Shown here: in pieces, positions 32,336 to 56,305 of the stretch
Layout: the number at the start of each line of letters is the position of its first letter
How positions within the stretch are numbered: the first letter of the stretch is position 1
Source of the DNA: Lachnospiraceae bacterium
Lineage (GTDB): Bacteria; Bacillota; Clostridia; Lachnospirales; Lachnospiraceae
Direction of reading: 5' to 3'
Assembly (NCBI GenBank): GCA_017427685.1
Contig: JAFRSH010000027.1
Location: 2,477 to 66,476, forward strand
Length of the DNA stretch: 64,000 bases
Translations under genes and position numbers: made by a program
The notes under the pieces: model-generated
Databases searched by the model: none
Told to the model about the DNA's origin: nothing
Seen by the model: the letters and a program-made list of their open reading frames with translations, nothing else

Positions 32336-32423
32336 CATACGGCTCTCCCTGCCACATGTATTGTTCCAAAAACGCTGACGCTTTAATTGTTTTTGGAACA
32401 ACACATGGTCGCGGTCGAGCCTG
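32336..32423 (+). repeat. Interspersed palindromic repeat, family B (copy B1)
   Basis: CATACGGCTCTCCCTGCCACATGT-ATTGTTCCAAAAAC...GTTTTTGGAACAAC-ACATGGTCGCGGTCGAGCC. Near-identical to the copy at 33283. The termini resemble the family A arms. Confidence 0.85.
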
Positions 32424-32438
32424 TTAAAGTGACCTACC

Positions 32439-32510
32439 AGGGTGCCTGGTATTGTTAAAAAGATGTTAGGAACGAAGTTCTTAACAGGTTTTTAACAGTA
32501 CCTGGCTCCC
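32439..32510. repeat. Long imperfect palindrome, family C (copy C1)
   Basis: AGGGTGCCTGGTATTGTTAAAAAGATGTTAGG...CTTAACAGGTTTTTAACAGTACCTGGCTCCC. Homologous to the copies at 43301 and 44439. Confidence 0.8.
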
Positions 32511-43300: not shown

Positions 43301-43398
43301 GGGAACCAGGTACTGTTACAGTTACGAGGGTACCAGGTATTGTTACAAAGATGTTAGGGTCGAAGACCTTAACAGGTTTGTAACAGTACCTGGTTCCC
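43301..43398. repeat. Family C palindromic repeat (copy C3, with an extra duplicated left arm)
   Basis: GGGAACCAGGTACTGTTACA-gttacga-GGGTACCAGGTATTGTTACAAAGATGTTAGGGTCGAAGACCTTAACAGGTTTGTAACAGTACCTGGTTCCC. Confidence 0.85.
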
Positions 43399-44380: not shown

Positions 44381-44401
44381 TAAGTTAACATCAAACACTT
44401 G

Positions 44402-44430
44402 GGCTCCGCGAGTTTCGCGGGGCCTTTTTT
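44402..44430 (+). terminator. Intrinsic terminator of rpsO
   Basis: GGCTCCGCG-agttt-CGCGGGGCC followed by TTTTTT. Confidence 0.8.
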
Positions 44431-44438
44431 CACTTTAT

Positions 44439-44509
44439 GGGAACCAGGTACTGTTACAAACCTGTTAAGGTCTTTGACCCTAACATCTTTGTAACAATAC
44501 CTGGTACCC
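44439..44509. repeat. Family C palindromic repeat (copy C4, inverted relative to C3)
   Basis: Equals the reverse complement of 43328-43398 with one mismatch by eye. Confidence 0.85.
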
Positions 44510-44600
44510 TGTTGGTGACTTCATCATGCACTTGTAAAAACCCTGAAAGTTTAATAAAATGAAAAGAAGGGGTTAAAGAACTTATGTAAGAGGTGGTTTT

Positions 44601-44966
44601 ATGCGAGAATCAGGCGAAATGTATCTTGAAACGATACTTGTGCTTTCAAAAGAGAAGGCGACAGTCAGGTCTATCGACGTGGCTGATCATATGAATTTCT
44701 CTAAACCCTCGGTGAGCAGGGCTGTCAACCGACTCAAGGACGACGGCTACCTTAACATGTCACCCGAAGGATTCCTTACACTTACAGACAAGGGACTTGA
44801 CGTTGCGAAGACTATCTACGAGCGTCATGTCGTTCTTACCAAGATCCTGGTAAAGCTCGGAGTCGATGAGCAGATCGCTGCGGAAGACGCATGCAAGATC
44901 GAGCACGACATCAGCCCCGAGACATTTGCGGCGTTGAAGAAGACAGCAGCCGGTTATATCGATTGA
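44601..44966 (+). CDS. DtxR/MntR-family metal-dependent transcriptional regulator (short form)
   Basis: MYLETILVL...VRSIDVADHMNFSKPSVSRAVNRLKDDGYL. Winged HTH plus dimerisation helix. Confidence 0.8.
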   Translation: MRESGEMYLETILVLSKEKATVRSIDVADHMNFSKPSVSRAVNRLKDDGYLNMSPEGFLTLTDKGLDVAKTIYERHVVLTKILVKLGVDEQIAAEDACKIEHDISPETFAALKKTAAGYID

Positions 44967-44985
44967 TCCCGAAAGGAAGCTTGCT

Positions 44986-45864
44986 TTGAAGTCCACAGGT
45001 TTGAACGTATTCTGTTCGTGCTCTTCGGATGCGCAACCATCTAAGAGCAGCAGAGAACTTATCACAGCAGCCGGTCACATGCCGGTTGAGGGCGATGCCC
45101 GCACCCTGCTCGGTGCGGACGCTCTTTTTATCTGTGTCTGCGGCAAGGAGAACAGGCGTGTCAAGGAAGACCTCAATCTCGCGCTCGACAAGGGTCTCCC
45201 GGTCGCGTACATCCTCGAAGAGGGCGGTACGCTTGACTCCGGTCTGAGTATCCAGCTCGCGATCGCGGCGAAGGTGGACGGGGCGAACCCGGCGAACGAC
45301 CTGACCGCATGGCTTAAGGGCGTGAGCGAGAGCGTATCGGCCGGACAAAAGAAGAGCAGGATCAAGCTGGCAGTGATCCTAACCGCAGTGTTACTGCTTG
45401 TTGCAGGCGGAGTGATAGCGGCTCTGACGCTTATGAACCAAGATACGGGTACCGCAGCAGAGTCGGCACTTTCGGAAGTCGAAAGACTCGGGATAGATGT
45501 GGAAGCACTCAAAAAGAGCGAGAAGATAGATCTCGCGGGACTCGGACTCACGGATATCTCGTTCCTCGCGGATTGCACCGCGTGCAAGGAGCTTGATATC
45601 AGCGACAATTCCATAAGCGACATCGGCGTGCTCATGGGACTTAAGGAGCTGAGCGTCCTGAAGGCGGATAACAACAGGATCGTTGACATAAGCGTTCTGA
45701 GCAGCACCACGGGGCTCTTGGTACTGAGCGTTCGGGGCAACAGGGTCAAGGACATCAACGTCCTGCTCGCGCTCACGCAGCTGAGGGAAGCGGACATCCG
45801 CGACAACCCGATAGAGGATTACACGGCAATGAATTTCCTGACCGGAGTGAACATACAGAGTTAA
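44986..45864 (+). CDS. Single-pass membrane protein: TIR-like cytoplasmic N-domain, TM helix, extracytoplasmic internalin-type LRRs
   Basis: TTG start after GAAAGGAAG. N-domain strands NVFCSCSS / ALFICVCGK / PVAYILEE parallel the clear TIR in the next gene. QKKSR, then TM IKLAVILTAVLLLVAGGVIAALTLM. About four 22-aa repeats follow (LTDISFLADCTACKELDISDNSISDIGVLMGLKELSVLKADNNRIVDISVL...). The LRR call is solid; the TIR-like call is tentative. Confidence 0.6.
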   Translation: MKSTGLNVFCSCSSDAQPSKSSRELITAAGHMPVEGDARTLLGADALFICVCGKENRRVKEDLNLALDKGLPVAYILEEGGTLDSGLSIQLAIAAKVDGANPANDLTAWLKGVSESVSAGQKKSRIKLAVILTAVLLLVAGGVIAALTLMNQDTGTAAESALSEVERLGIDVEALKKSEKIDLAGLGLTDISFLADCTACKELDISDNSISDIGVLMGLKELSVLKADNNRIVDISVLSSTTGLLVLSVRGNRVKDINVLLALTQLREADIRDNPIEDYTAMNFLTGVNIQS

Positions 45865-45878
45865 AGAAAGGAAGGATT

Positions 45879-48104
45879 ATGAGCGAGAAGCCTACCGCGT
45901 ACAAAGGAGACGAAAAGTACATTTTTGTAAGCTACGCCCACAAGGACAGCGCTGACGTGATGCCTCTCATCGAGGCTCTGCAGAGCGCTTCATACCGCGT
46001 GTGGTATGACGAGGGGATCGAACCCGGCAACGACTGGGCAGGCGTGATCGGTAACAACCTTGAGAAGGCTGCAATCGTGCTTTTCTGCGCGTCCAAGACA
46101 TCGGTCAAGCGTGACAACGTGCTGCGCGAGATCGCATTTGCCGGAGAACATGATGTGCCCGTCCTCACGGTGACGATCGGAAACGTTGCGTTCCCGGCCG
46201 AGCTCGAGAGGATGCTCATGGTCAATCAGACCGTTTCGCTCAGGACTTTTAAGACATACGGCGATTTCGTGAATGCGATCTCAGGCGTGCTGAAGAAGGC
46301 CGGGACCTACGCAGGAGCAGCAGAGGGCAGCTCCGTAACGGAAGTTAAGGAAGCTTCCGCTGTGGCTACGGGCGGGGCACTCGATAAGAAGATCATGCTT
46401 GGAAGCAGGATGAAGCGTAACAAGCTGATCCTCAGACTGCTCATCGTACTCGCTGTTCTGGCGGCACTTGCGGCAGCGACCTTCTTCGTGGCTTTCAAGG
46501 ATGTACCCGACGTTATCGACATGGATGCGGACGAGGCGCGCGCACTGATCGAAGAAGCCGGTTTTGATTGTGATATCAGTAACGATTACTCTGATACATA
46601 TCCGTTCGGAAAGGTATTCGCGCAGAGCAGGAGCGGTATGAACTTCCGCTTTGTGCCCGTCCTTATCAGGCAGAGCCTCGGACCCGAGGAGAACCTGACG
46701 GATGTTCCGGACACTGTAACGCACCATATAAGCGAAGCGGCGTCGATGCTGATCACCGCCGGCATGAAGAAGTTTGAGATCTCACCCGTGCTCGGTACGG
46801 GCAGAGAGAACGCGCATGTCGATGCGCAGAGCATCCCTGCGGGACTCAGGGTTTCGAGAAACAACGTGATAGACCTTGATGTGGCAACGGACGGCGGCGA
46901 AATCATCTTTGAGATCGCGGGCAAGTACTACGTGATCCGCGGTACGCAGCCTGTAGTTGTCGATGCGGACGATACGAGCAATCTTGAGGAAGTGAAGCCC
47001 GCGGAGGATCCGAACCCGGCTCCCGACAGGAGCACGACCCCTGATGATACCACAGGCTCAATTTCGGGCGGTGATGTCGCAGCGGTCACAGAGGATGAAG
47101 GCGCGGCAGAAGAAGATACGGCCGATACAGAAGATACAGCAGACGCAGGCGATGAAACACCCGAGGGACGGGACGTTGCAGGCGTGACAGATGCTGAAGC
47201 GGAAGAACCTGAAGTCGAAGAAGTACCCGAGCCTACACCTGTTCCGGCACCTACGGCTACGCCTGTTCCCGAACCCACACCGGTACCTACACCGACGCCG
47301 GCACCCACAGCGACACCCGTTCCCACGGCGACGCCTGTTCCCACGGCAACACCTTCGCCCACACCCACACCGAAGCCTACAGCGACACCCACTCCGACTC
47401 CGGAAACGGCGAAGTACAACAGCCTCGGCGGGAACAAGTGGGAGGTTTATAATCAGGCGGCCATGCAGGAGATCCATGATATGCCCATGACTGCAGAGGA
47501 AGCCCGGTCGTACGGTGACGAATGGTTCGAAGGAGAGCACGCCAACGACACATACAGCACTAACATGAAGATCATGGATGACTTTACGATCAACACGGAT
47601 CTGGGAGGGCTTTGGACTGTCGAAGTTCCTTCGGGAAGGACGCTCACCATTGGTAAGGGCGGAAGGCTTCAGGCATGTGTGACGGTACAGAAGGGCGCCA
47701 AGATCGTGGTTGAATCGGGTGGCAAGCTCTGGTGTACGCAGGGCGGCGAGGAGTGCATCATGAACTACGGCACCGTCGATGTCAAATCGGGCGGCCAGAT
47801 CCAGAGTATGTTCGGAGGAACCTTCAACAACCTTTCGGGCGCGACACTCAACCTGAACGGAACCTTTAACTGCGGATCCGTTATGCATAACGTGACTCCC
47901 GACGGCTCGATGGCCCGTGCTGTATGGTTCGTGAACAAGGGAACCGTTAAGGGCAGTGGAAAAGCAACTATCTTCGGAGCTTTCCTCGGAAATTATACCG
48001 ATGAGGAGATAGATGAATTCTTTAACTGGGCTGAGGAACAGCTCGCTGAAAGGCTCGGAAACAGCAGTATCACGACGAGTCAGAACAGGGATTATGATCC
48101 GTAA
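45879..48104 (+). CDS. TIR-domain membrane protein with PASTA-like repeats, Pro/Thr linker and a C-terminal beta-rich module
   Basis: TIR_2-type N-terminus KYIFVSYAHKDSADVMPLIEALQSASYRVWYDE...IVLFCASKTSVKRDNVLREIAFA. KRNK, then TM LILRLLIVLAVLAALAAATFFVAF. Two PASTA-like units (VPDVIDMDADEARALIEEAGF..., VPDTVTHHISEAASMLITAGM...). A (T/P)-rich linker. The C-terminal ~200 aa resemble the end of ORF 52184..56305. Confidence 0.8.
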   Translation: MSEKPTAYKGDEKYIFVSYAHKDSADVMPLIEALQSASYRVWYDEGIEPGNDWAGVIGNNLEKAAIVLFCASKTSVKRDNVLREIAFAGEHDVPVLTVTIGNVAFPAELERMLMVNQTVSLRTFKTYGDFVNAISGVLKKAGTYAGAAEGSSVTEVKEASAVATGGALDKKIMLGSRMKRNKLILRLLIVLAVLAALAAATFFVAFKDVPDVIDMDADEARALIEEAGFDCDISNDYSDTYPFGKVFAQSRSGMNFRFVPVLIRQSLGPEENLTDVPDTVTHHISEAASMLITAGMKKFEISPVLGTGRENAHVDAQSIPAGLRVSRNNVIDLDVATDGGEIIFEIAGKYYVIRGTQPVVVDADDTSNLEEVKPAEDPNPAPDRSTTPDDTTGSISGGDVAAVTEDEGAAEEDTADTEDTADAGDETPEGRDVAGVTDAEAEEPEVEEVPEPTPVPAPTATPVPEPTPVPTPTPAPTATPVPTATPVPTATPSPTPTPKPTATPTPTPETAKYNSLGGNKWEVYNQAAMQEIHDMPMTAEEARSYGDEWFEGEHANDTYSTNMKIMDDFTINTDLGGLWTVEVPSGRTLTIGKGGRLQACVTVQKGAKIVVESGGKLWCTQGGEECIMNYGTVDVKSGGQIQSMFGGTFNNLSGATLNLNGTFNCGSVMHNVTPDGSMARAVWFVNKGTVKGSGKATIFGAFLGNYTDEEIDEFFNWAEEQLAERLGNSSITTSQNRDYDP

Positions 48105-48136
48105 TATAATACGATGTTTATAAAGAAAGGGTACAA

Positions 48137-49030
48137 ATGATGAGAAGAAGAACAATCGTTTTTTCGATTTTGGTTGGTATAATGGCTGCATGCCTGCTTA
48201 TGGGATGCAAATCAGGGACAAAGCTTGAAAACATAGCCTTTGATAAAGAAAAGAACAGTTACACATGTGAGTATGATGGCTTAAAACGAGAGTTTATCGT
48301 AAGTCTGCCCGAGACGGCGAAGAATGCTCCGCTTGTTGTCATGCTTCACGGGTCCGGGGATGCCGCAGACAACTTCAGACAAACCTCTGAGTTCGACAAA
48401 GATGCGAATGAAAAGGGCTATGCTGTCTGCTTTATCAACGGAACGGTCAATGTTAAGGCCGGAAGAAACTCATGCAGTTGGAACTACGGAAGGATCGAAC
48501 CCGATAATGATGACGTATCGTTTATAAAAGAAGTGGTAAAGTACGTCTGCGATGAGTACTCGCTCGACGATGATGATGTTTACTGCGCGGGATTCTCGAA
48601 CGGAGGCTACATGAACTTCAGACTTGCACTCGAGGCCCAGGACGTCTTCAAGGGCTGTGTCAGTGTCGGAGGAGATCTCTGCAAGACCCTTTGGAACAAA
48701 AAGCCCGAAAAGAATGATGTGAGTCTCATGGCTGTATACGGCGAAAAGGACGAGATAGTTCCGAAGAACCTTGACGGATCGGCAAAGAGCGCACTCGATC
48801 CGGCGATAGAAGATGTGCTTGAGTATCTCGCATCGTCAAACGGACTCGCCAAGCAATCGGAGGGCGAGATCGGAAGCGGTTCGACCATATATAAATACGG
48901 TGCGGACGGAGACAGCGATGCCATTTGGGGTGTGCTTGTAAAGGACGGCAAGCACGGATGGCCGACGCAGGAGTCTAATGGTTTCAGTGTGAATCAGTTG
49001 ATACTTGAGTTCTTTTCAAGCATCAAGTGA
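48137..49030 (+). CDS. Lipoprotein esterase, PHB-depolymerase/feruloyl-esterase (COG3509-like) family
   Basis: Lipobox LLMGC, VVMLHGSGD, nucleophile elbow GFSNGG. Confidence 0.75.
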   Translation: MMRRRTIVFSILVGIMAACLLMGCKSGTKLENIAFDKEKNSYTCEYDGLKREFIVSLPETAKNAPLVVMLHGSGDAADNFRQTSEFDKDANEKGYAVCFINGTVNVKAGRNSCSWNYGRIEPDNDDVSFIKEVVKYVCDEYSLDDDDVYCAGFSNGGYMNFRLALEAQDVFKGCVSVGGDLCKTLWNKKPEKNDVSLMAVYGEKDEIVPKNLDGSAKSALDPAIEDVLEYLASSNGLAKQSEGEIGSGSTIYKYGADGDSDAIWGVLVKDGKHGWPTQESNGFSVNQLILEFFSSIK

Positions 49031-49085
49031 TCCCAAAACGCTGTCGTCTAATTGTTTTTTGGAAAACACACGGGCGCGGAAAAGC
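49031..49085 (+). repeat. Family B repeat, partial (copy B3; the left outer arm overlaps or is replaced by the esterase 3' end)
   Basis: TCCCAAAACGCTGTCGTCTAATTGTTTTTTGGAAAACACACGGGCGCGGAAAAGC matches the inner stem and right arm of B1 and B4. Confidence 0.65.
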
Positions 49086-49124
49086 TTGTGAACGTTTAGG
49101 AAGAGTAGAGAAAAGCAGAGGATT

Positions 49125-50765
49125 ATGGTTAAGGATGCGATAAAAACACAATATATTCCTCTTGTTCTGGGAGTTACGGGACACAGGGACATCACTCCTG
49201 ATGACGCCAGACTCGCCCGGGATGTCGTTAGATACGAGATCAAGAGGCTCGCAGCACTTGCTCCCGACACTCCCTTGGAGTTGCTCTCGAGCCTTGCGGC
49301 GGGAGCGGACAGGATCGTAGCTGAGGTGGCTCTTGAAGAAGGGATCCCTCTCACTGTCATCCTCCCAATGAAGTCGGAGCTTTATGAGGAAGACTTTACC
49401 CCCGAAGAGGTTACAGAGTACAGGGAGCTTCTCTCGGGCGCATCAAACGTCTTCGTTGCGCCCGAGATCGAGGATCACAAAGAAGGTCGCGACTTCCTCT
49501 ACCGTCAGGCCGGGATTTACGTAGCGACACATTCACATGTGCTCATAGCGCTCTGGGACGGTTCGGAGCCGAAACGCGGGGGATGCGGAACCGCTGAGAC
49601 GGTGGACATCAAGCTTAAGGGAAGCCTCGAACTCAGCAAGGCACCGGGCTTTTCGCCCGAGAAGGGGTTCGTGATACATATCCCCGTAAGAAGAGGTGGA
49701 GTGGAACCTTTCCCCGAAAGGACCATCACACCGAACTATCTCGGCGATGAGAAGACTTTTAACAGAGTTATCGAACGAACTGAAGAGTTTAACAGGAGCG
49801 CCCTGAAGCTCGCCGCGAAGGGAGAAATCGCATCGCAGGCTTCACTCGCCGGGTCGGAGCATGAGACCGGGAACGAACGCGCTTTCGAGCGTATGTCGAG
49901 GGTCGGATGCGCAGCGGATCTCAGCAGTGTGAAGGGAGCCAAGAGACACAGGATCACAGTCGGACTGATCGCCGTGATGGCGACGCTCCTTACGATGTCG
50001 TTCCTTCTTTATGACGAAGCAAACATTCATTACCTGATCGTCGGCTGTGGCGTGATGATCGTGGGTATATACGTTCTGAACCTGCTTGCCCGGAAGCGTG
50101 ACTTCCATCGCAAGTATCTTGAGTACAGACTGCTTGCGGAGGCGCTTCGTGTTCAGAGTGCACTGATCGAGGCAGGTGTTTATGCCGAGACCTTCGAGAT
50201 GCTCTCGTGGGCACAGAAGCTCGAGACACCGTGGATCAGCCGTGCACTGGCGGCTATCTGCATCTACGATCCCGATTCGCTCACGCTGACCGGTGCGACC
50301 GACAACTGGATCAACGGACAGCTCTCGTATCAGAGGAGAGCCGTGGAACGCGCCAAGGCTCAGTCGAAAGCGAACGACAGGATAGTGCACGTCGCTGTCG
50401 CGATCACTGTAGCGGTGTACATGGCGGCACTCGTGTTCGAGATCTTCTGGGCAGGAACTTTCGGAGGAAGCGCGAAGCTGGGTGAAGTCGATGCCGAGTT
50501 CGTGAGGACCATCTTCAAACTCGCCACCGGATCGCTTTCAGCGATCTCGCTCTTCGCAGGAAGCTACTACGGCAAGCTCTCGCTTGATCAGTGGGCACAC
50601 GATTCCGAGAGAATGGTGCTGCTTTATGAGGAAGCGAACGCAGCCAAGGAGAACTGCCGTGACCTCGGAAAGCTCTGTGTGAGCCTCGCGAGGGAGGAGC
50701 TGTCGGAGAATATGCGGTGGTACGCGTACCAGAGCGTAAACAGTCCCGACGCGCCTATCAGTTGA
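49125..50765 (+). CDS. SLOG-like (LOG/DprA-type Rossmann) domain fused to two SLATT-like 2TM modules
   Basis: LVLGVTGHRD, LAAGADRIVAEVALEEGIP and RGGCGTAETV. Two TM hairpins, each followed by an amphipathic helix (HRKYLEYRLLAEALRVQ; LDQWAHDSERMVLLYEEA). Confidence 0.6.
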   Translation: MVKDAIKTQYIPLVLGVTGHRDITPDDARLARDVVRYEIKRLAALAPDTPLELLSSLAAGADRIVAEVALEEGIPLTVILPMKSELYEEDFTPEEVTEYRELLSGASNVFVAPEIEDHKEGRDFLYRQAGIYVATHSHVLIALWDGSEPKRGGCGTAETVDIKLKGSLELSKAPGFSPEKGFVIHIPVRRGGVEPFPERTITPNYLGDEKTFNRVIERTEEFNRSALKLAAKGEIASQASLAGSEHETGNERAFERMSRVGCAADLSSVKGAKRHRITVGLIAVMATLLTMSFLLYDEANIHYLIVGCGVMIVGIYVLNLLARKRDFHRKYLEYRLLAEALRVQSALIEAGVYAETFEMLSWAQKLETPWISRALAAICIYDPDSLTLTGATDNWINGQLSYQRRAVERAKAQSKANDRIVHVAVAITVAVYMAALVFEIFWAGTFGGSAKLGEVDAEFVRTIFKLATGSLSAISLFAGSYYGKLSLDQWAHDSERMVLLYEEANAAKENCRDLGKLCVSLAREELSENMRWYAYQSVNSPDAPIS

Positions 50766-50850: not shown

Positions 50851-50892
50851 CGCGCCTCAATACAACAGTACGTTGAGGCGCGATCCTTTTTT
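50851..50892 (+). terminator. Intrinsic terminator after the SLOG-SLATT-like gene
   Basis: CGCGCCTCAA-12 nt-TTGAGGCGCG followed by ATCCTTTTTT. Confidence 0.75.
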
Positions 50893-50985: not shown

Positions 50986-51876
50986 ATGAAGAAAATAATT
51001 TATTTAACGCTTATGCTGATCGGGCTTATGGCTGCCTGCATTCTTACGGGATGTTCGTCGTCGGGGCCCAAGCTTGAGAATGTTGAGCTTGATAAGGGTA
51101 ACAAGTACAATTGCACGTTTGAGGATGTTAAGCATGATTTCGTAATCAGCCTTCCCGAGCAGACCAAGAACGCACCTCTCATCGTGATGCTTCACGGAGC
51201 TTCGGATTCTGCTGAGAACTTCAGACTCACGAGCCGTTTTGATGAAGATGCGCTTCCTAAGGGTTACGCAGTTTGCTACGCAACCGGAACCGTTAATGTG
51301 AAGGCCGGAAGAAGTGAGAAGAGCTGGAACTACGGAAGAATGGATCCTGATTACAATGATGTAGGATTTATCAAGGCGCTCGTTAACTACCTTGTTGATG
51401 AGTACTCACTCGACGAAGACCGCGTGTTCTGCGCAGGCTTCTCGAATGGAGGATTCATGAACTTCAGACTCGCGCTTGAGGCACAGGATACATTCCAGGC
51501 ATGCGTGAGCGTCGGTGGAGATCTTTGCAAGACACTTTGGAACAAGAAACCTGAAAAGAACGATGTCGGAATGCTTGCTATCATCGGAGAGATCGATGAG
51601 TCCGTTCCGAAGAACTTCGACGGAACAGCAAAGACTGCTCTTGATCCCGCTATTGAGGATGTACTTGATTACATGGCTTCATCAAACGGCCTTGAGCTTC
51701 AGTCCGAAGCTGAGATCGGAGAAGGTTCGACGATCCGCAAGTATGGTGCTGACGGCGATGAGGACATGGTTTGGGGCGTAGTAGTAAAGGGAGCTAAGCA
51801 TGGATGGCCGACGGAGGAGCTTAACAAGATCAGTGCGAATAAACTCATCCTTGATTTCTTCGAGAATTGGAAATAG
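50986..51876 (+). CDS. Lipoprotein esterase, paralog of 48137..49030
   Basis: Lipobox ILTGC, IVMLHGASD, GFSNGG. Collinear with the first esterase; most positions are identical by eye. Confidence 0.75.
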   Translation: MKKIIYLTLMLIGLMAACILTGCSSSGPKLENVELDKGNKYNCTFEDVKHDFVISLPEQTKNAPLIVMLHGASDSAENFRLTSRFDEDALPKGYAVCYATGTVNVKAGRSEKSWNYGRMDPDYNDVGFIKALVNYLVDEYSLDEDRVFCAGFSNGGFMNFRLALEAQDTFQACVSVGGDLCKTLWNKKPEKNDVGMLAIIGEIDESVPKNFDGTAKTALDPAIEDVLDYMASSNGLELQSEAEIGEGSTIRKYGADGDEDMVWGVVVKGAKHGWPTEELNKISANKLILDFFENWK

Positions 51877-52183: not shown

Positions 52184-55100
52184 ATGAAAAGGATTGCTAC
52201 CAGGTTAGTCGTGTTGTTTGCGATCGTTGCTCTGGTGTTCGGAACACTTCCCGCCGGCAGTGCGGAAGCAGCTTCGAAGAAGAGCAAGAAGAAGACGATC
52301 GTCGTTACGACACAGGAAGAACTTGTTGCTGCTCTCAAGAAGTACGGTTCTTCAAATTCAAAGGTTAAGATCAAGATCGAGACTACCGAGGCAAGTACCT
52401 TCACACTCAGTGCGAAGTACAGCTCGGACAGTATTCAGATCGTTGTTGACGCGCCCAATGCCACCATCAAGAGTAAGGCTAAGGTGTCGAGTATTACTAT
52501 TAATGAGGCGAAGTCTGTTAAGGAGTACGCTTCGGGCAACAAGATCACCGTTAATGATGAGAAGCTGACATTCACAGCTATGGAGAATGCGTCGGTTGAG
52601 AAGCTGACGATCGCTTCCGAGACGGGTACCGTCAAGGTCGTTAACAACGGTGGTATCGAGAAGGTTTCCGTTAAGACCGAAGTTAAGGTTGACCTGACAC
52701 AGAACGGTGAAATGGGACGTGTTTACGTCGCTGCGGCTGCTGATATCAGCGTCAGCGGAACTTCTGAAGAGAGTCTTAAAGTTACGGTTCAGAAGGAAGC
52801 TGTCGGAGCGTCGGTTAAGGCTGAAGTTCCGGTTAGCGTTAACGCTTATGCAGACGTTGATCTGACCCTCGAAAAAGGTGCCGAGAACTCCAAGGTCACA
52901 ATGAAGGAAGAGACGGCAGGCGTTAAGCTTGAGAACAATACGGAAGAAACCGTTTCCGTAAAGGATACCGAAGGAAATACCCAGAAGGTTGAGACAGGTG
53001 AGGACCTCACAACAGACAACTTCGTCGGCAAGCCTGATGAGCCCGAAACAACCGAAGGCACAGTAACAGAGCAGCCTAAGGAAGAGGAGCAGAAGGAAGA
53101 AGAAAAGAAAGACGACACAACCAATACCGGCTCGGACAATAACGAAACGGACAATAATCAGGGGAATACAGATCCCGGTAACAACCAGGGCAACACAGAT
53201 CCCGGCTATACAAGCGTGCCCGGTCCTACCGCTACGGAATTGTTTATAAAAGAACTCACGACTGCAGCTGAGACGGCTGCACAGAACGGCTACAGTCAGC
53301 TTGTGCCTGTAAAGAGAACAACCGATCTTACACTTACCGAGGATATCGTCATTCCTACAGGTGTACAGTTGTTTATCGGATACGAAAACAGTAGTGCAAC
53401 ACTTGACGCAGATTCATATGGAATCAAGCTTTCGGAGAATTCACAGATAATCGTATCGTCCCAGAGTAAGCTTAATGTTGAGGAACAGAAAATAGTCTAC
53501 TCTCCCGAAGATAAGGTTCGCCACACAGAGGCTTGGCTTGTTGTTGAACCGGGTGCAGAGTTTAACTTCGGTGCTTACAGGTTTATCGCTGACGGAGATC
53601 AGGGCGTTACCGATCCTCATTATCATATTTGCGCTATCCGCTATGCGTGCGGTGAGGATTGGCATTGGAGTCAAGACGCAGATCGTAATGTCAGGTTCTT
53701 TAATAATTCCGTTTCTGTTCAGAACAATGGCGGTACCGTAACGATCACCGGTGAAGGCGCAGGCTTAAGCGAGCTTCCCGCTGCTTTCGGTGTTGGCAGC
53801 TATATCCTGAATATTCCAAATACCGATTGGGCTGATTTCGAAAATGCCCGTAACGCAGTACCTGAGGACGGAGTGTTCTCTTATCTTGAGTTCACAAACG
53901 GGGACAACCTCAGTTGCAACAAGTTCGTGACCAAGTTTGGAAATGAAGCGATTTATGAATACGTGAACTCTGACGTTGACTGGCTTAATGCATACCTTGA
54001 TCCGAACAGAGCAAACGAGATATCCGATGCAGAGAAAGCAGGAAAGTACTCGACTATATCTGTTGAGAAATCTGATGTGGGCAGGATCAGGACTGTCACT
54101 ATACCTTCGGGCAACTCAAACGGCGCAGCGATAACGATTACCGGCGAGCTTCGTATTCCTGTGGGTTCAAAGCTTATTGCAAATAAGCCGCTTGACATGA
54201 AAGAGTACGGCGCAGTCCTCAAGATCATGGGAACCTTTGAATCGCAAGCAAATTATTATCATGGTCTTGGCGTTTGCAGCTCGGTGATTGGTAATACAAG
54301 CAAAGAAAGGGCAGGAGTTCCTCATCTTCTCGTAGAGATGTGCGGCCCTCAGGCAAGACTGATTTTAAAAGAAAGCAGTGAGTACAGAGAGTATTTCTTT
54401 AAATACTCATTTGAAGATGGCAGACAGGTTGATCTTACAAAGATCGATCCCGAACAGCAGGGCCTGGCGATCGAAACATGGAGAGACGAGGTAGACGGGA
54501 ACACCTATATAAAATCAATATGGGAATACATCTATATCCCCGAGGATACCACCAAAGGAACACCTCACTGGATGGTTTACAGGAAAACAAAGGGTGCTGC
54601 CGATACAACCGGTGTAGAGGTTGTAAATCATCCTTTCAAAGACAATTTCATATCGCTTGAAGATCTTCGGAAGGGAATAAATATAGGAGTTATAGATAAC
54701 AGGCATGAGCTTGTGAGATTTCTTGACTGGTCAAGCAGTGTTGCATGGTTGTATGTCAACGAGAATTGGAACAACTTGACCGGAATCAGAGAAGTAGCAG
54801 ATGATAATAACAATAAGTATGTCGACTTTAGCGGAATAGCTGCGAATGCTTTTGATGGTATTGAAAACTATGCTAACATCGGGTGGCATAAGTTTTCAAC
54901 AAATACACAACAGTATCTTACATTGCCTGCAAGAAAGTCGTCGGACGGAAACAATATTCCTTGGGAATTGAGCGCCGTTGAGCTTAAGCTAAGCGATTAC
55001 ACTGCAAGCGAACTTTGTTCGATGAGACTCAGGCAGGAAGCTTCTCTTAAAGTGAGCATGGGCGGAACACTTGTGGTTGACTCTGTAATGGCTGCCTCAA

Positions 55101-56305
55101 AGGATAACAATTATTTATATACGAAGGCACTTGTGCTCGATTATGATGAGAATGCAACGCAACAGCAAAACAAGGGTGCCCGTATCGATGTATGTCTCGG
55201 TGGTGCGCTTCAGATTGGTGACATCAAGGTTTCTGTTCCCGACAACTGCACCGGCGATTGGAAAGCAGGCCAACCCGGAATCTCACTCTCTGCTGAATAT
55301 GATAATAACAGGACTACAGATTCCCAGAATGGTGTTTATAAGTATTATTTAAGACTTCAGGTACCCCAGTGCGCTAAGTTCACCAAGGTCGATAATGGAA
55401 CTGAAACCATTCCCACAGCTGCAGAGATCAATGCATGGTTACTCGCGAACAATATCTCGATCGATTTTATCGATCCCAGCAAGCTTAATGGTGAGGAATA
55501 CTTTGTAGTAACAGGCGATCCTGACAGAGCATGGATCCTGAAACGCGCAGCGGGTGGATTGGCAAATAACAGTATTGAGGAATTAATAGCTCCTAAAAAG
55601 GACAGTGATGGATACTATGAAATAAAGGAAAGTGAACATCTCCGCGCTCTTTACATGTGCAAGGGAGACGGATCGGGGTCGGAAAGGATCAAGGTGCGGA
55701 TCAATCCGGATAATGCGGACAATGAGCTTATCCTTAACTCAAAGCTGGAGACCATGTGGGATGTTGAAATCGTTTCCGGCAAGAAGCTCACCGTAAACCC
55801 TGGATCTGTACTCGAGGCAGCGGTTACTGTCGCTTCATGCGCAGCTATTGATATTCAGGTCAGCGGAAGCGAATATGGTGAACTTCGCACCACCCAGGGC
55901 GGAAACATCACCGTAAAAGCCGGCGGAACAATCAATGTATATGACGGTACTCATGGTAATGGAAACAGCGGTGAAGGAAAAGCCAAGCTTGTTTCTCAAA
56001 AGGGTGGAAGAGTAATTGTTGAAGCCGGTGGTACACTTGAAATCTATGGTACCTTTGAGTGTGGCGGATATAAAAGTGCCGATGTAGTAACGCCTGAGGT
56101 TTGGTTTGCAAACAACGGAACAGTTAATAACTACGGAAGCATTATCGTAACGATCTTTATTGCGAAATCGTCAACTAGTCAAAGCCTGACCGTAAACGAA
56201 GTGAATGGTATAGCGTTTGATATAAGAAATAAAGGCACTTACAAAGGTGATGGCGTAATCGATATCAAGTACGTAAGTGAAATAGCGTTGACAAATCATT
56301 CGTAA
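52184..56305 (+). CDS. Very large secreted protein of unknown function (beta-rich repeats; C-terminal module shared with the TIR protein)
   Basis: Strong RBS. Signal peptide LVVLFAIVALVFGTLPAGSAEA. Lys/Glu/Asn-rich linker with a duplicated NNQGNTDPG. C-terminal W.VE..SG..LT / GTFxCG / VWFxNxGTV pattern matches 45879..48104. Confidence 0.7.
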   Translation: MKRIATRLVVLFAIVALVFGTLPAGSAEAASKKSKKKTIVVTTQEELVAALKKYGSSNSKVKIKIETTEASTFTLSAKYSSDSIQIVVDAPNATIKSKAKVSSITINEAKSVKEYASGNKITVNDEKLTFTAMENASVEKLTIASETGTVKVVNNGGIEKVSVKTEVKVDLTQNGEMGRVYVAAAADISVSGTSEESLKVTVQKEAVGASVKAEVPVSVNAYADVDLTLEKGAENSKVTMKEETAGVKLENNTEETVSVKDTEGNTQKVETGEDLTTDNFVGKPDEPETTEGTVTEQPKEEEQKEEEKKDDTTNTGSDNNETDNNQGNTDPGNNQGNTDPGYTSVPGPTATELFIKELTTAAETAAQNGYSQLVPVKRTTDLTLTEDIVIPTGVQLFIGYENSSATLDADSYGIKLSENSQIIVSSQSKLNVEEQKIVYSPEDKVRHTEAWLVVEPGAEFNFGAYRFIADGDQGVTDPHYHICAIRYACGEDWHWSQDADRNVRFFNNSVSVQNNGGTVTITGEGAGLSELPAAFGVGSYILNIPNTDWADFENARNAVPEDGVFSYLEFTNGDNLSCNKFVTKFGNEAIYEYVNSDVDWLNAYLDPNRANEISDAEKAGKYSTISVEKSDVGRIRTVTIPSGNSNGAAITITGELRIPVGSKLIANKPLDMKEYGAVLKIMGTFESQANYYHGLGVCSSVIGNTSKERAGVPHLLVEMCGPQARLILKESSEYREYFFKYSFEDGRQVDLTKIDPEQQGLAIETWRDEVDGNTYIKSIWEYIYIPEDTTKGTPHWMVYRKTKGAADTTGVEVVNHPFKDNFISLEDLRKGINIGVIDNRHELVRFLDWSSSVAWLYVNENWNNLTGIREVADDNNNKYVDFSGIAANAFDGIENYANIGWHKFSTNTQQYLTLPARKSSDGNNIPWELSAVELKLSDYTASELCSMRLRQEASLKVSMGGTLVVDSVMAASKDNNYLYTKALVLDYDENATQQQNKGARIDVCLGGALQIGDIKVSVPDNCTGDWKAGQPGISLSAEYDNNRTTDSQNGVYKYYLRLQVPQCAKFTKVDNGTETIPTAAEINAWLLANNISIDFIDPSKLNGEEYFVVTGDPDRAWILKRAAGGLANNSIEELIAPKKDSDGYYEIKESEHLRALYMCKGDGSGSERIKVRINPDNADNELILNSKLETMWDVEIVSGKKLTVNPGSVLEAAVTVASCAAIDIQVSGSEYGELRTTQGGNITVKAGGTINVYDGTHGNGNSGEGKAKLVSQKGGRVIVEAGGTLEIYGTFECGGYKSADVVTPEVWFANNGTVNNYGSIIVTIFIAKSSTSQSLTVNEVNGIAFDIRNKGTYKGDGVIDIKYVSEIALTNHS

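What the first reader, a model, noticed from the sequence alone, without database searches (positions are those of the whole stretch)
44986..48104. Two membrane-spanning TIR-type proteins with extracytoplasmic LRR or PASTA-like domains (Toll-like-receptor-like topology)
- **Clear TIR protein:** ORF 45879..48104 starts with a bacterial TIR_2-type domain (KYIFVSYAHKDSADV...RVWYDE...IVLFCASKTSVKRDNVLREIAFA). The Glu in REIAFA sits where the conserved TIR Glu normally is.
- **Its topology:** A positive patch (KRNK) and one TM helix follow. Beyond the membrane are two PASTA-like units, a long Pro/Thr linker and a beta-rich C-terminal module.
- **Second protein:** ORF 44986..45864 has a weaker TIR-like alpha/beta N-domain (NVFCSCSS, ALFICVCGK, VKEDLNLAL, PVAYILEE), then QKKSR plus a TM helix, then about four internalin-type 22-aa LRRs.
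- **Predicted orientation:** By the positive-inside rule, both put the TIR side in the cytoplasm and the ligand-binding side outside. This mirrors animal TLRs and differs from the soluble ThsB-type TIR proteins of known defence systems.
- **Possible signal:** PASTA domains bind muropeptides in Ser/Thr kinases of the PknB/PrkC type. An envelope-sensing TIR NADase or signal generator is therefore conceivable.
- **Operon context:** Gaps of 14-32 nt link these genes to the DtxR-like regulator and to the first esterase.
Basis: partly seen in the sequence, partly recalled or inferred. Interest (0 to 1): 0.75.

Follow-up and report, generated by a model that had tools for sequence, protein, structure and literature searches.

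The report
Membrane-spanning TIR receptors with SLOG–SLATT partner
Two neighbouring genes encode single-pass membrane proteins with a TIR-type domain inside the cell and a PASTA or leucine-rich-repeat domain outside. They share an operon with a predicted nucleotide-gated membrane protein, which suggests a bacterial outside-in version of TIR signalling that has not yet been tested.

Summary
**Observation.** It is real. ORF 45879..48104 (741 aa) has five parts:
- a TIR_2 domain with the catalytic-type Glu (E84)
- one TM helix
- two PASTA-like units
- a Pro/Thr stalk
- a beta-rich module

ORF 44986..45864 (292 aa) has a small alpha/beta N-domain, one TM helix and about five internalin-type LRRs.

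**The N-domain of the 292-aa protein.** Profile comparisons show it is TIR-derived. It is degenerate: Asp/Asn sits at the Glu position. Fold searches returned only generic flavodoxin-like matches.

**Topology.** Charge bias predicts N-in/C-out for both proteins and across 102 relatives.

**Main addition.** The same operon ends with 49125..50765 (546 aa), a probable SLOG + SLATT (DUF4231) membrane protein.
- Relatives of this protein were confirmed in at least 548 stretches of the species-genome set, mostly rumen and gut Clostridia.
- In 32 of 45 well-flanked loci it lies within 10 kb of one to three TIR–TM–ectodomain genes.
- 97 of 112 such TIR genes are upstream on the same strand.
- Typically one TIR keeps the Glu and the others are degenerate.

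**Best reading.** This is a Thoeris-like TIR-to-SLOG/SLATT signalling module whose TIR proteins are transmembrane receptors. It is not in a defence island.

**Limits.** Enzymatic activity, the ligand and the biological role are untested.

**Novelty.** New variant of a known kind.

The parts
44401..44425 (+). Intrinsic terminator after rpsO. It marks the upstream boundary of the operon.
   Evidence: 11-bp stem with 8 G-C pairs followed by a T run.
44532..44560 (+). Promoter-like site upstream of the regulator gene.
   Evidence: TTGTAA-17-TAAAAT, 9 of 12 matches. The scan as a whole was not above the shuffled expectation, so this is weak evidence.
44601..44966 (+). DtxR/MntR-family metalloregulator (121 aa), the first gene of the operon. 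It is conserved at this position only in the close lineage.
   Evidence: Pfam Fe_dep_repress 1.8e-14 and Fe_dep_repr_C 4.4e-13. NCBIfam MntR models hit below cut-off. The same gene precedes the LRR gene in L001, L002, L003, L011 and L012.
44986..45864 (+). LRR292: degenerate TIR-derived N-domain (aa 1-118, 44986-45339; Asp62 codon 45169-45171), TM helix (aa 128-146, 45367-45423), internalin-type LRR ectodomain (aa 171-292, 45496-45861).
   Evidence: Pfam LRR_4 2.8e-11. TM and charge bias. AF2 models. Foldseek matches to internalins. hhalign against TIR families 93-96% with reversed-template controls. Family alignment A1.
45879..48104 (+). TIR741: TIR domain (aa 1-140, 45879-46298; Glu84 codon 46128-46130), TM helix (aa 187-205, 46437-46493), PASTA unit 1 (46494-46694), PASTA-like unit 2 (46695-46913), acidic and Pro/Thr stalk (46995-47405), beta-rich C-terminal module (47406-48101).
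   Evidence: Pfam TIR_2 3e-15 and PASTA 7.9e-14. PDB TIR matches 8qlo, 7uwg, 8g83 and 3h16. PASTA unit 2 by hhalign. C-terminal module shared with the 1373-aa protein. Coordinates checked.
48137..49030 (+). Esterase 1, a lipoprotein of the PHB-depolymerase/carboxylesterase family. Its place inside the operon is specific to this lineage, and it is probably not a core component.
   Evidence: Pfam Esterase_PHB and Abhydrolase_2. NCBIfam e_dPHAscl_type1 3.3e-31, below cut-off. N-terminal hydrophobic segment ending in LLMGC. 66% identical to esterase 2. Relatives carry a single copy, after the 546-aa gene.
49125..50765 (+). P546: probable SLOG domain (aa 1-260, 49125-49904) fused to a SLATT/DUF4231-type multi-TM region (aa 261-546, 49905-50762). 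Predicted signal receiver and membrane effector.
   Evidence: For the window protein, DUF4231 scores 2.8e-4 and YAcAr SLOG 0.12. Across 37 family members, 35 hit DUF4231 (best 1.3e-6), 33 hit YAcAr (best 1.7e-5), 11 hit DprA and 4 hit SLATT_3. Three or four TM helices have K/R on the cytoplasmic sides. Conserved motifs GVTGHR, LAxGAD and GCGTAE.
50851..50892 (+). Hairpin plus T run after P546. Probable end of the operon.
   Evidence: CGCGCCTCAA...TTGAGGCGCG folds at -18.1 kcal/mol and is followed by ATCCTTTTTT. The consensus scan missed it, probably because of its long loop (my reading of why).
50986..51876 (+). Esterase 2, a paralogue of esterase 1 in a separate transcription unit.
52184..56305 (+). 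Secreted 1373-aa protein with no known domain. Its C-terminal region (aa 1180-1325, 55721-56158) is homologous to the C-terminal module of TIR741.
   Evidence: BLASTP 36% identity over 152 aa, 1e-15. N-terminal signal-like helix. No Pfam family. Syntenic but only 35-50% identical in relatives.

Best explanation
**What it is.** The two ORFs are the receptor half of a five-gene operon (44601-50765). Its genes, in order, are:
- a DtxR-family regulator
- LRR292
- TIR741
- a lipoprotein esterase
- P546

The operon is a lineage-specific variant of a cassette that is widespread in rumen and gut Clostridia. In that cassette, one to three single-pass TIR-TM-ectodomain proteins are encoded just upstream of a SLOG+SLATT-type membrane protein.

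**Shown by computation**
- The domain content.
- The N-in/C-out charge bias.
- The retention of the catalytic-type Glu in one TIR per cassette (TIR741 here) and its loss in the partner(s) (LRR292 here).
- The conserved gene linkage and order.

**Inferred mechanism**
1. A ligand binds the extracytoplasmic PASTA/beta-module or LRR domains.
2. Binding clusters the cytoplasmic TIR domains. The degenerate TIR of LRR292 acts as a co-receptor or scaffold for the catalytic TIR of TIR741.
3. The assembled TIR converts NAD+ into an ADP-ribose-derived messenger.
4. The messenger binds the cytoplasmic SLOG domain of P546.
5. The SLATT transmembrane region of P546 changes membrane permeability, causing growth arrest, death or a physiological switch.

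**Open question.** Whether the trigger is phage adsorption, cell-wall damage or a cue from neighbouring cells is unknown.
For: **Domains.**

**Topology**
- Each protein has one TM helix, with K/R 5 vs 1 (TIR741) and 4 vs 0 (LRR292) on the N side versus the C side.
- Of 114 non-identical TIR-like neighbours of P546 homologues, 102 have a TM helix after the TIR.
- Their mean K+R is 4.14 on the N-flank versus 1.51 on the C-flank, and N exceeds C in 91 of 102.
- Only 2 of 120 have a hydrophobic segment before the TIR.

**Linkage**
- Among 45 loci with at least 8 kb upstream and 3 kb downstream of a P546 homologue, 32 have a TIR-like gene. Of these, 25 have a strong one (E<1e-30) and 22 have three or more.
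- 97 of 112 TIR-like genes lie upstream on the same strand.
- The cassette sits in unrelated flanking contexts in different lineages.
- In L090 the same parts appear in a different order.
- The TIR model hit only the two expected ORFs in the whole 64-kb window.

**Catalytic versus degenerate TIRs.**

**Selection.** All domains are under purifying selection, with dN/dS from 0.04 to 0.49. The LRR292 N-domain is at 0.14-0.20, so it is functional rather than decaying.

**Precedent**
- Type I Thoeris uses a SLOG sensor for 3'cADPR.
- Type III Thoeris has several TIRs plus a SLOG effector.
- Type VII Thoeris pairs a TIR with a SLATT effector that responds to cADPR (bioRxiv 10.64898/2025.12.03.692087).
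- YpsA-clade SLOG domains sense cADPR variants, and SLATT is predicted to be an effector regulated by ADPr derivatives (PMC9503650).
Against: - No activity, ligand or phenotype has been measured.
- The window's own P546 scores below Pfam cut-offs for both DUF4231 (21.7 vs 24.7 bits) and YAcAr (12.6 vs 28.2 bits). Profiles of it found no relative of solved structure.
- 13 of 45 well-flanked P546 loci have no detectable TIR within 10 kb, and 7 of those have no RyR-like partner either.
- Close TIR relatives also occur alone, without P546 nearby.
- The locus lies among core genes (infB to rpsO upstream; HD-GYP, MCP and radical SAM genes downstream) and is syntenic across related genomes. This is unlike typical defence islands.
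- PADLOC has no model for P546 or LRR292.
- The LRR292 N-domain could not be shown to be specifically TIR by fold.
Confidence: 0.6

Rival explanations
1. It is an anti-phage abortive-infection system: a Thoeris-type system that senses phage at the cell surface. Contact of the LRR, PASTA or beta-module ectodomains with a phage receptor-binding protein, or with phage-induced wall damage, triggers TIR signalling, and the SLATT region of P546 kills or arrests the cell. This is a specific version of the best explanation, not an alternative to its biochemistry.
For: - TIR plus SLOG or SLATT pairs are validated anti-phage systems.
- The multi-TIR arrangement recalls type III Thoeris.
- The cassette moves between genomic contexts.
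- LRR292 evolves about four times faster at the protein level than the TIR domain at similar dS (dN 0.12 vs 0.027).
- Alleles recombine within the operon.
Against: - The locus is not in a defence island. It is stably syntenic next to core genes in at least four related genomes.
- No neighbour hits PADLOC.
- dN/dS is below 0.5 everywhere, so there is no gross sign of positive selection.
- PHROGs gave no informative match.
- Known ThsB proteins sense infection inside the cell.
Confidence: 0.3
2. It is a housekeeping envelope-state sensor, analogous to PASTA Ser/Thr kinases (PknB, PrkC, Stk1) but with a TIR output in place of a kinase. It would report muropeptides, lipid II or surface-polymer status. 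It would tune membrane permeability, dormancy or sporulation and germination through P546, possibly under metal control by the DtxR-like regulator.
For: - The layout matches PASTA kinases: a cytoplasmic output domain, one TM helix, then tandem PASTA units.
- The PknB_PASTA_kin model aligns to aa 179-338 (7.6e-11).
- The TIR and PASTA parts are strongly conserved (dN/dS 0.04-0.07).
- The position is chromosomal and syntenic.
- The regulator is co-transcribed.
Against: - Most cassettes in other Clostridia use LRR rather than PASTA ectodomains and lack the DtxR gene.
- The LRR292 family is very narrow: 25 clusters among 1.84 billion representatives.
- Only 7 close TIR-PASTA relatives were found, which is odd for a core function.
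- P546 alleles differ by about 50% between genomes whose infB is 96-98% identical.
Confidence: 0.25
3. The TIR domains are only protein-protein adaptors that assemble a surface-protein complex, which may include the 1373-aa protein sharing the C-terminal module. P546 and the TIR proteins would then be functionally independent neighbours.
For: - Two of the three TIR classes, and LRR292, lack the catalytic Glu.
- TIR741 shares an extracellular module with the secreted 1373-aa protein.
- Orphan TIR-TM proteins exist without P546.
Against: - The Glu and the FxSYxH / WYDEG motifs are conserved in one TIR per cassette.
- The ordered, same-strand linkage to P546 persists across divergent lineages and contexts.
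- SLOG and SLATT are, by precedent, receivers of nucleotide signals.
Confidence: 0.1

Closest known systems
Thoeris anti-phage systems: type I (ThsB TIR + SIR2-SLOG ThsA), type III (several TIRs + SLOG effector) and type VII (TIR + SLATT effector ThsH, cADPR signal)
   Same: - A TIR protein with the catalytic-type Glu is encoded next to a protein that combines a SLOG-type sensor with a SLATT-type membrane region.
- There are several TIR paralogues per operon, as in type III.
- The expected logic is the same: an NAD-derived messenger made by the TIR activates a membrane effector.
   Different: - Here the TIR proteins are single-pass membrane proteins with large extracytoplasmic LRR or PASTA domains. 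Known ThsB proteins are soluble.
- SLOG and SLATT are fused in one effector.
- The partner TIRs are degenerate.
- The locus is not in a defence island.
- NCBIfam ThcB4 scores 24.5 bits against a cut-off of 220, and PADLOC ThsB models hit only weakly.
- No defence phenotype is known.
PASTA-domain Ser/Thr kinases (PknB / PrkC / Stk1)
   Same: Both have a cytoplasmic output domain, one TM helix and tandem extracytoplasmic PASTA units. The TM+PASTA region aligns to the PknB_PASTA_kin model.
   Different: - The output domain is a TIR, not a kinase.
- There are only two PASTA-like units, followed by a Pro/Thr stalk and an unrelated beta-rich module.
- The score is far below the family cut-off (41.7 vs 450 bits).
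Animal Toll-like receptors
   Same: Both are single-pass membrane proteins with an LRR ectodomain and a cytoplasmic TIR. Both are likely to rely on TIR-TIR assembly between receptor and partner.
   Different: - The domain order is reversed. Here the TIR is N-terminal and the ectodomain C-terminal. TLRs are type I, with an N-terminal ectodomain.
- The LRRs are the internalin-type 22-residue kind.
- The TIR of LRR292 is degenerate, and TIR741 carries PASTA rather than LRR.
- There is no sign of orthology, so convergence is the likely explanation.
SLOG-SLATT and TIR-SLATT gene neighbourhoods predicted by comparative genomics (Burroughs et al. 2015, recalled from memory because the paper is not held; restated in PMC9503650 and PMC7159879)
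   Same: P546 combines the two domains that define that network, and it is linked to TIR genes.
   Different: I found no description of membrane-spanning TIR-LRR or TIR-PASTA receptors as the TIR component, or of the RyR-domain partner, in the papers I could search.

Membership tests
TIR domain superfamily (Pfam TIR_2): TIR741 | Significant match to the TIR_2 profile above the curated cut-off | tested here: met
   57.2 bits against a cut-off of 28, E 3e-15, aa 15-102. PDB TIR proteins 8qlo, 7uwg, 8g83, 7uxr and 3h16 were hit at 1.8e-4 to 0.02.
TIR domain superfamily (Pfam TIR_2): TIR741 | Catalytic-type Glu on helix alpha-C, as needed for NADase-type TIRs | tested here: met
   E84 aligns with the Glu of 'VLKEIAVA' in 8qlo. 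It is conserved in 23/27 class-B and 4/4 TIR-PASTA relatives. Enzymatic activity cannot be tested with these tools.
TIR domain superfamily: N-domain of LRR292 | Sequence or profile homology to TIR domains | tested here: met
   - There is no Pfam hit.
- hhalign against TIR families gives 95.9% (E 6e-9), 94.2% and 93.1%. Reversed-template controls give <0.5%.
- The iterated TIR HMM hits the ORF at 3.2e-6.
- The domain's own profile reaches a Pfam TIR_2 protein (P0226) at a whole-library E of 1.8e-4.
TIR domain superfamily: N-domain of LRR292 | A predicted structure that specifically matches TIR folds | tested here: inconclusive
   The model has pLDDT 90.9.
- **PDB hits:** IRGQ, SEFIR (TM 0.57), CheY-like receivers, MilB and nucleoside deoxyribosyltransferase, all at E >= 1e-4. 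No canonical TIR appears in the top 50.
- **BFVD hits:** deoxyribosyltransferases and receiver domains, with one TIR protein at rank 31 (TM 0.66).
TIR domain superfamily: N-domain of LRR292 | Catalytic-type Glu | tested here: not met
   The aligned position is Asp62. Across the family it is Asp, Asn or Glu. The WYDEG/BB-loop motif is absent.
PASTA domain | Match to the Pfam PASTA profile above the cut-off | tested here: met
   Unit 1 scores 51.8 bits against a cut-off of 23.2. Unit 2 is supported only by internal profile similarity (86.8%) and by the span of the PknB_PASTA_kin match.
Internalin-type LRR | LRR profile match and an LRR solenoid structure with a 22-residue period | tested here: met
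   LRR_4 43.7 bits against a cut-off of 27. The AF2 LRR region has pLDDT >90. Foldseek matches InlA and InlB at E about 5e-8 with 37% identity.
SLATT (DUF4231 / SLATT_1-6): P546 | Match to a SLATT-family profile over a two-TM hairpin | tested here: inconclusive
   The window protein scores 21.7 bits against a cut-off of 24.7 (E 2.8e-4, aa 272-344, over TM1-TM2). Among family members, 35/37 hit DUF4231 (best 1.3e-6) and 4/37 hit SLATT_3.
SLOG superfamily (YAcAr / YpsA / DprA clades): P546 | Match to a SLOG-family profile and Rossmann-like glycine motifs | tested here: inconclusive
   - The window protein scores E 0.12 against YAcAr.
- 33/37 members hit YAcAr (best 1.7e-5), 11/37 hit DprA and 1/37 hits YpsA.
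- The conserved motifs are GVTGHR, LAxGAD and GCGTAE.
- There is no PDB sequence match.
Thoeris defence system | A TIR gene adjacent to an effector gene that carries a signal-binding domain | tested here: met
   TIR741 and P546 are in one operon. The linkage is conserved in 32/45 loci.
Thoeris defence system | Location in defence islands or on mobile elements | tested here: not met
   The flanks are infB-rbfA-nrnA-truB-ribF-rpsO on one side and HD-GYP, MCP and radical-SAM genes on the other. PADLOC has no hits for the neighbours. The locus is syntenic in relatives.
Thoeris defence system | Phage-triggered production of an NAD-derived messenger, and protection against phage | not testable with these tools
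   This needs biochemistry and infection assays.
Toll-like receptors | N-terminal LRR ectodomain, TM helix and C-terminal TIR (type I), with orthology to metazoan TLR TIR groups | tested here: not met
   The order here is TIR-TM-ectodomain. The TIR matches the bacterial TIR_2 and ThsB-type profiles.

The most novel reading that the evidence does not exclude
Clostridia carry a family of true outside-in TIR receptors. Extracytoplasmic LRR or PASTA domains detect an external cue such as phage adsorption, wall damage or a neighbouring cell. They transmit it across the membrane by assembling a heteromeric TIR complex, made of one catalytic TIR plus degenerate co-receptor TIRs. The NAD-derived product of that complex gates a SLOG-SLATT channel. 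This would be a bacterial counterpart of TLR-style surface sensing, arrived at independently and using the Thoeris chemistry.
Probability: 0.35. Interest if true: 0.85.

Novelty: new variant of a known kind. Interest (0 to 1): 0.7.

Why it matters
**Contrast with known systems.** The characterised bacterial TIR signalling systems I could find in the literature use soluble TIR proteins that detect infection inside the cell. The cassette here pairs receptor-like, membrane-spanning TIR proteins with a SLOG-SLATT protein.

**What it would show if the mechanism holds**
- TIR-made nucleotide messengers can report events at the cell surface.
- Catalytic and degenerate TIRs cooperate as receptor and co-receptor, much as paired plant and animal TIR proteins do.
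- The LRR-TM-TIR layout arose independently in bacteria.

**Annotation value.** It gives a first functional hypothesis for a 530-aa 'hypothetical protein' family confirmed in at least 548 genome stretches of rumen and gut Clostridia.

**Tractable experiment.** Test E84Q, NAD+ turnover and messenger binding by the SLOG domain.

Tried and rejected
1. **Cassette swap in TIR741.** A first BLASTP printout showed only the C-terminal match between TIR741 and its L001 orthologue, which suggested a swapped N-terminal half. Translation and Pfam showed that the orthologue is a full TIR-PASTA protein, so I dropped the idea.
2. **Fast evolution as the cause of uneven identity.** Identity across the operon between relatives is uneven. 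Synonymous distances show this is mostly a recombination mosaic. All segments are under purifying selection.
3. **Fold search with the full LRR292 model.** It returned only internalin LRRs. The N-domain had to be modelled alone, and even then the fold search was not specific for TIR.
4. **P546 profiles against PDB sequences.** The full-length profile and the N-domain profile both found nothing meaningful.
5. **C-terminal module of TIR741.** There was no PDB sequence hit, no Pfam hit and no useful PHROG.
6. **Rfam scan of the operon.** Nothing was found.
7. **Is LRR292 a miniature of the large class-C proteins?** hhalign to class C gave only 1.7%, against 93-94% to classes A and B.
8. **Literature.** Burroughs et al. 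2015 could not be retrieved. Searches for a prior description of TIR-TM-LRR or TIR-TM-PASTA receptors linked to SLOG/SLATT found none.
9. **Opposite topology (TIR outside).** I rejected this on charge bias, on the absence of N-terminal signal sequences, and on the typically extracytoplasmic nature of PASTA domains, internalin LRRs and Pro/Thr stalks.

Full report
**1. The observation**

The window region 44.3-52.3 kb holds co-directional ORFs downstream of infB-rbfA-nrnA-truB-ribF-rpsO.

*Operon boundaries*
- A strong terminator follows rpsO at 44401-44425.
- A hairpin plus T run follows the 546-aa ORF at 50851-50892 (-18.1 kcal/mol).
- Between them lie five genes: a 121-aa DtxR/MntR-family regulator (44601-44966), a 292-aa ORF (44986-45864, 'LRR292'), a 741-aa ORF (45879-48104, 'TIR741'), a lipoprotein esterase (48137-49030) and a 546-aa ORF (49125-50765, 'P546').
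- The gaps are 19, 14, 32 and 94 nt, each with a Shine-Dalgarno-like motif.

*TIR741*
- It scores TIR_2 3e-15 and PASTA 7.9e-14 in Pfam.
- It matches solved bacterial TIR proteins. The Glu of its REIAFA motif (E84) aligns with the Glu in 'VLKEIAVA' of 8qlo.
- It has a single hydrophobic helix at aa 187-205, with five K/R before it and six D/E after it.
- A second PASTA-like unit (aa 273-345) is not called by Pfam. It resembles unit 1 in a profile-profile comparison (86.8%, E 4e-6) and lies within the stretch that aligns to the PknB_PASTA_kin model.
- A 137-residue acidic and Pro/Thr stalk follows.
- The last part is a 232-residue beta-rich module. It matches nothing in Pfam or the PDB. It is 36% identical to the C-terminal region of the secreted 1373-aa protein at 52184-56305.

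*LRR292*
- It has LRR_4 at 2.8e-11.
- It has one helix at aa 128-146, preceded by QKKSRIK.
- Its AlphaFold2 model has LRR strands every 22 residues. The closest structures are internalins.

There are two small corrections: the Glu is residue 84, and there are about five LRRs rather than four.

**2. Is the N-domain of LRR292 a TIR?**

*For*
- Pfam finds nothing there.
- The family alignment (19 proteins) compared with an alignment of TIR domains from TIR741 relatives gives hhalign probability 95.9%, E 6e-9, over 73 columns.
- Against two other TIR classes from related cassettes it gives 93-94%.
- Reversed-template controls give <0.5%.
- A TIR HMM built from Pfam-positive proteins and iterated on cassette loci hits this ORF (3.2e-6), TIR741, and nothing else in the 64-kb window.
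- A profile of the N-domain searched against 1.84 billion representatives finds only 25 proteins. One of them (P0226, E 1.8e-4 over the matching region) is a Pfam TIR_2 + PASTA + LRR_4 protein.

*Against or limiting*
- The domain modelled alone is confident (pLDDT 90.9) and has the five-strand beta-alpha-beta order expected of TIR.
- Foldseek nevertheless returns only generic flavodoxin-like neighbours at weak E-values: SEFIR, nucleoside deoxyribosyltransferase/MilB and CheY-like receivers. A viral TIR appears at rank 31.
- The residue aligned with the catalytic Glu is Asp62. It varies between Asp, Asn and Glu in the family, and the WYDEG loop is missing.

*Conclusion:* it is a TIR-derived, probably non-catalytic domain. 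It is still under purifying selection (dN/dS 0.14-0.20).

**3. The missing partner**

P546 has a weak DUF4231 hit over its first two TM helices.
- Scanning 37 family members individually, 35 hit DUF4231 (best 1.3e-6), 33 hit the YAcAr SLOG family (best 1.7e-5), 11 hit DprA and 4 hit SLATT_3.
- The N-domain keeps the motifs GVTGHR, LAxGAD and GCGTAE. From memory, these resemble the LOG/SLOG glycine motifs.
- Charge bias puts the N-domain and all loops between the hairpins in the cytoplasm.

P546 is therefore best read as a SLOG sensor fused to a SLATT-type membrane region.

**4. Conservation of the linkage**

P546 relatives are common. There were more than 400 hits in the protein collection. 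Nearly all of the 80 loci kept are rumen or gut Clostridia MAGs.

I called ORFs in the 80 fetched loci and searched them with the TIR HMM. A recurrent same-strand array appears upstream of the P546 homologue:

| Position | Protein | Layout | Glu position |
|---|---|---|---|
| Class A | ~280 aa | TIR-TM | Not conserved |
| Class B | ~390 aa | TIR-TM-LRR | Conserved in 23/27 |
| Class C | 900-1300 aa | TIR-like-TM-large LRR | Not conserved; WYDEG loop absent |
| Optional | 575-700 aa | Soluble RyR-domain protein | n/a |
| Last | P546 homologue | SLOG+SLATT | n/a |

*Counts*
- Of 45 loci with enough flanking sequence, 32 have at least one TIR-like gene, 25 a strong one, 22 three or more, and 28 an RyR-like gene.
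- 97 of 112 TIR-like genes are upstream on the same strand.
- The flanking genes differ between lineages.
- In L090 the same parts occur in another order: RyR, P546-like, TIR-PASTA, LRR292-like.
- Of 114 non-identical TIR-like proteins, 102 have a TM helix right after the TIR. K+R averages 4.14 before it and 1.51 after it. Almost none has an N-terminal signal sequence.

*The window's version* has a DtxR-like regulator, LRR292, TIR-PASTA and P546, with esterase and a large secreted protein nearby. It is syntenic in four to five related genomes at the same chromosomal position.

*Limits of the linkage*
- It is not absolute: 13 of 45 loci lack a detectable TIR.
- TIR-PASTA and other TIR-TM relatives also occur alone.

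**5. Evolution within the close lineage**

Amino-acid identities to relatives are uneven:

| Protein or domain | Identity to relatives |
|---|---|
| infB | 96-98% |
| TIR domain | ~80% |
| PASTA units | 84-93% |
| LRR292 | 51-63% |
| P546 | 95% to L001, 45-54% to L003 and L012 |
| 1373-aa protein | 35-50% |

Synonymous distances explain most of this as recombination.
- Against L001, dS is saturated for the left part of the operon but about 0.2 for the TIR741 C-module and P546.
- Against L011 the pattern is reversed.
- dN/dS ranges from 0.04 to 0.49. It is lowest in the TIR and PASTA parts and highest in the TM/stalk segments.

**6. Mechanism**

*Shown:* the domains, the predicted topology, one Glu-bearing TIR accompanied by degenerate TIR partner(s), and an ordered, conserved linkage to a SLOG+SLATT-type protein.

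*From the literature*
- TIR domains of Thoeris systems make NAD-derived messengers.
- SLOG binds 3'cADPR in type I.
- Type III has several TIRs plus a SLOG effector.
- Type VII pairs a TIR with a SLATT effector that responds to canonical cADPR (10.64898/2025.12.03.692087).
- YpsA-clade SLOGs sense cADPR variants, and SLATT is predicted to control membrane permeability (PMC9503650).

*Inferred*
1. Ligand binding outside the cell drives assembly of TIR741 with LRR292.
2. The assembled TIR produces a messenger.
3. The SLOG domain of P546 binds the messenger.
4. The SLATT region gates.

The trigger and the biological role are open. Candidates are phage defence, envelope monitoring in the manner of PASTA kinases, and sensing of other cells. 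The core-genome, syntenic location and the lack of PADLOC hits argue against a typical defence island. They do not exclude defence.

**7. Comparison with known systems, and novelty**

- The intracellular half (TIR to SLOG/SLATT) is a known kind.
- The receptor half is not described in any paper I could search. It consists of TIR proteins that span the membrane, carry LRR or PASTA ectodomains and come as catalytic/degenerate sets.
- Burroughs et al. 2015 could not be read, so prior mention there cannot be excluded.
- The system is not a TLR, because the domain order is reversed and the TIR is of bacterial type.
- It is not a PASTA kinase.
- It is not a demonstrated Thoeris system.
- I rate it a new variant of a known kind.

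**8. Verdict**

The function remains a hypothesis. Interest 0.7.

Noticed in passing
window 44439-44509; also 32355-32504, 43307-43392 and about 56500: A near-perfect palindrome of about 70 nt (34-nt arms, 85% complementary) lies between the rpsO terminator and the operon promoter. Its 16-mer core, CAGGTACTGTTACAAA, occurs 9 times in the window with up to 3 mismatches, against 0.29 expected. It is absent as an exact match from all 92 fetched loci and has no Rfam match. It looks like a genome-specific REP/MITE-like intergenic repeat.
   Followed up: partly
window 48137-49030 and 50986-51876: Two 66%-identical lipoprotein esterases of the PHB-depolymerase/carboxylesterase family flank P546. Relatives have only one copy, after P546, so the copy inside the operon is a recent duplication.
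   Followed up: partly
window 45879-50765 compared with L001 and L011: There is a recombination mosaic. The left part of the operon (regulator, LRR292, TIR, PASTA) is closest to L011 (dS 0.3-0.6). The TIR741 C-module and P546 are closest to L001 (dS about 0.2, versus saturated elsewhere). This implies a breakpoint in or near the Pro/Thr linker.
   Followed up: partly
L005 6335-8062, L008 825-2852, L090 1185-2974 and 28 of 45 cassette loci: A soluble 575-700-aa protein with an RyR domain (PF02026) is usually encoded just upstream of the P546 homologue. It is absent from this window. Its role is unknown.
   Followed up: partly
window 52184-56305: A secreted 1373-aa protein with no Pfam family shares the C-terminal beta-rich module of TIR741. 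It is only 35-50% identical to its syntenic counterparts in genomes whose infB is 96-98% identical, so it is a hypervariable surface protein.
   Followed up: partly
proteins P0226 and P0049: P0226 (381 aa) combines TIR_2, PASTA and LRR_4 in one chain. P0049 (469 aa, Clostridia) is listed with TIR_2 plus the FtsZ/tubulin families PF00091 and PF12327, an unusual fusion.
   Followed up: no
L001 6107-8182: In the closest syntenic relative, a BlaR1-type M56 peptidase gene (691 aa) is inserted between ribF and rpsO. It is absent at that position in the window.
   Followed up: no
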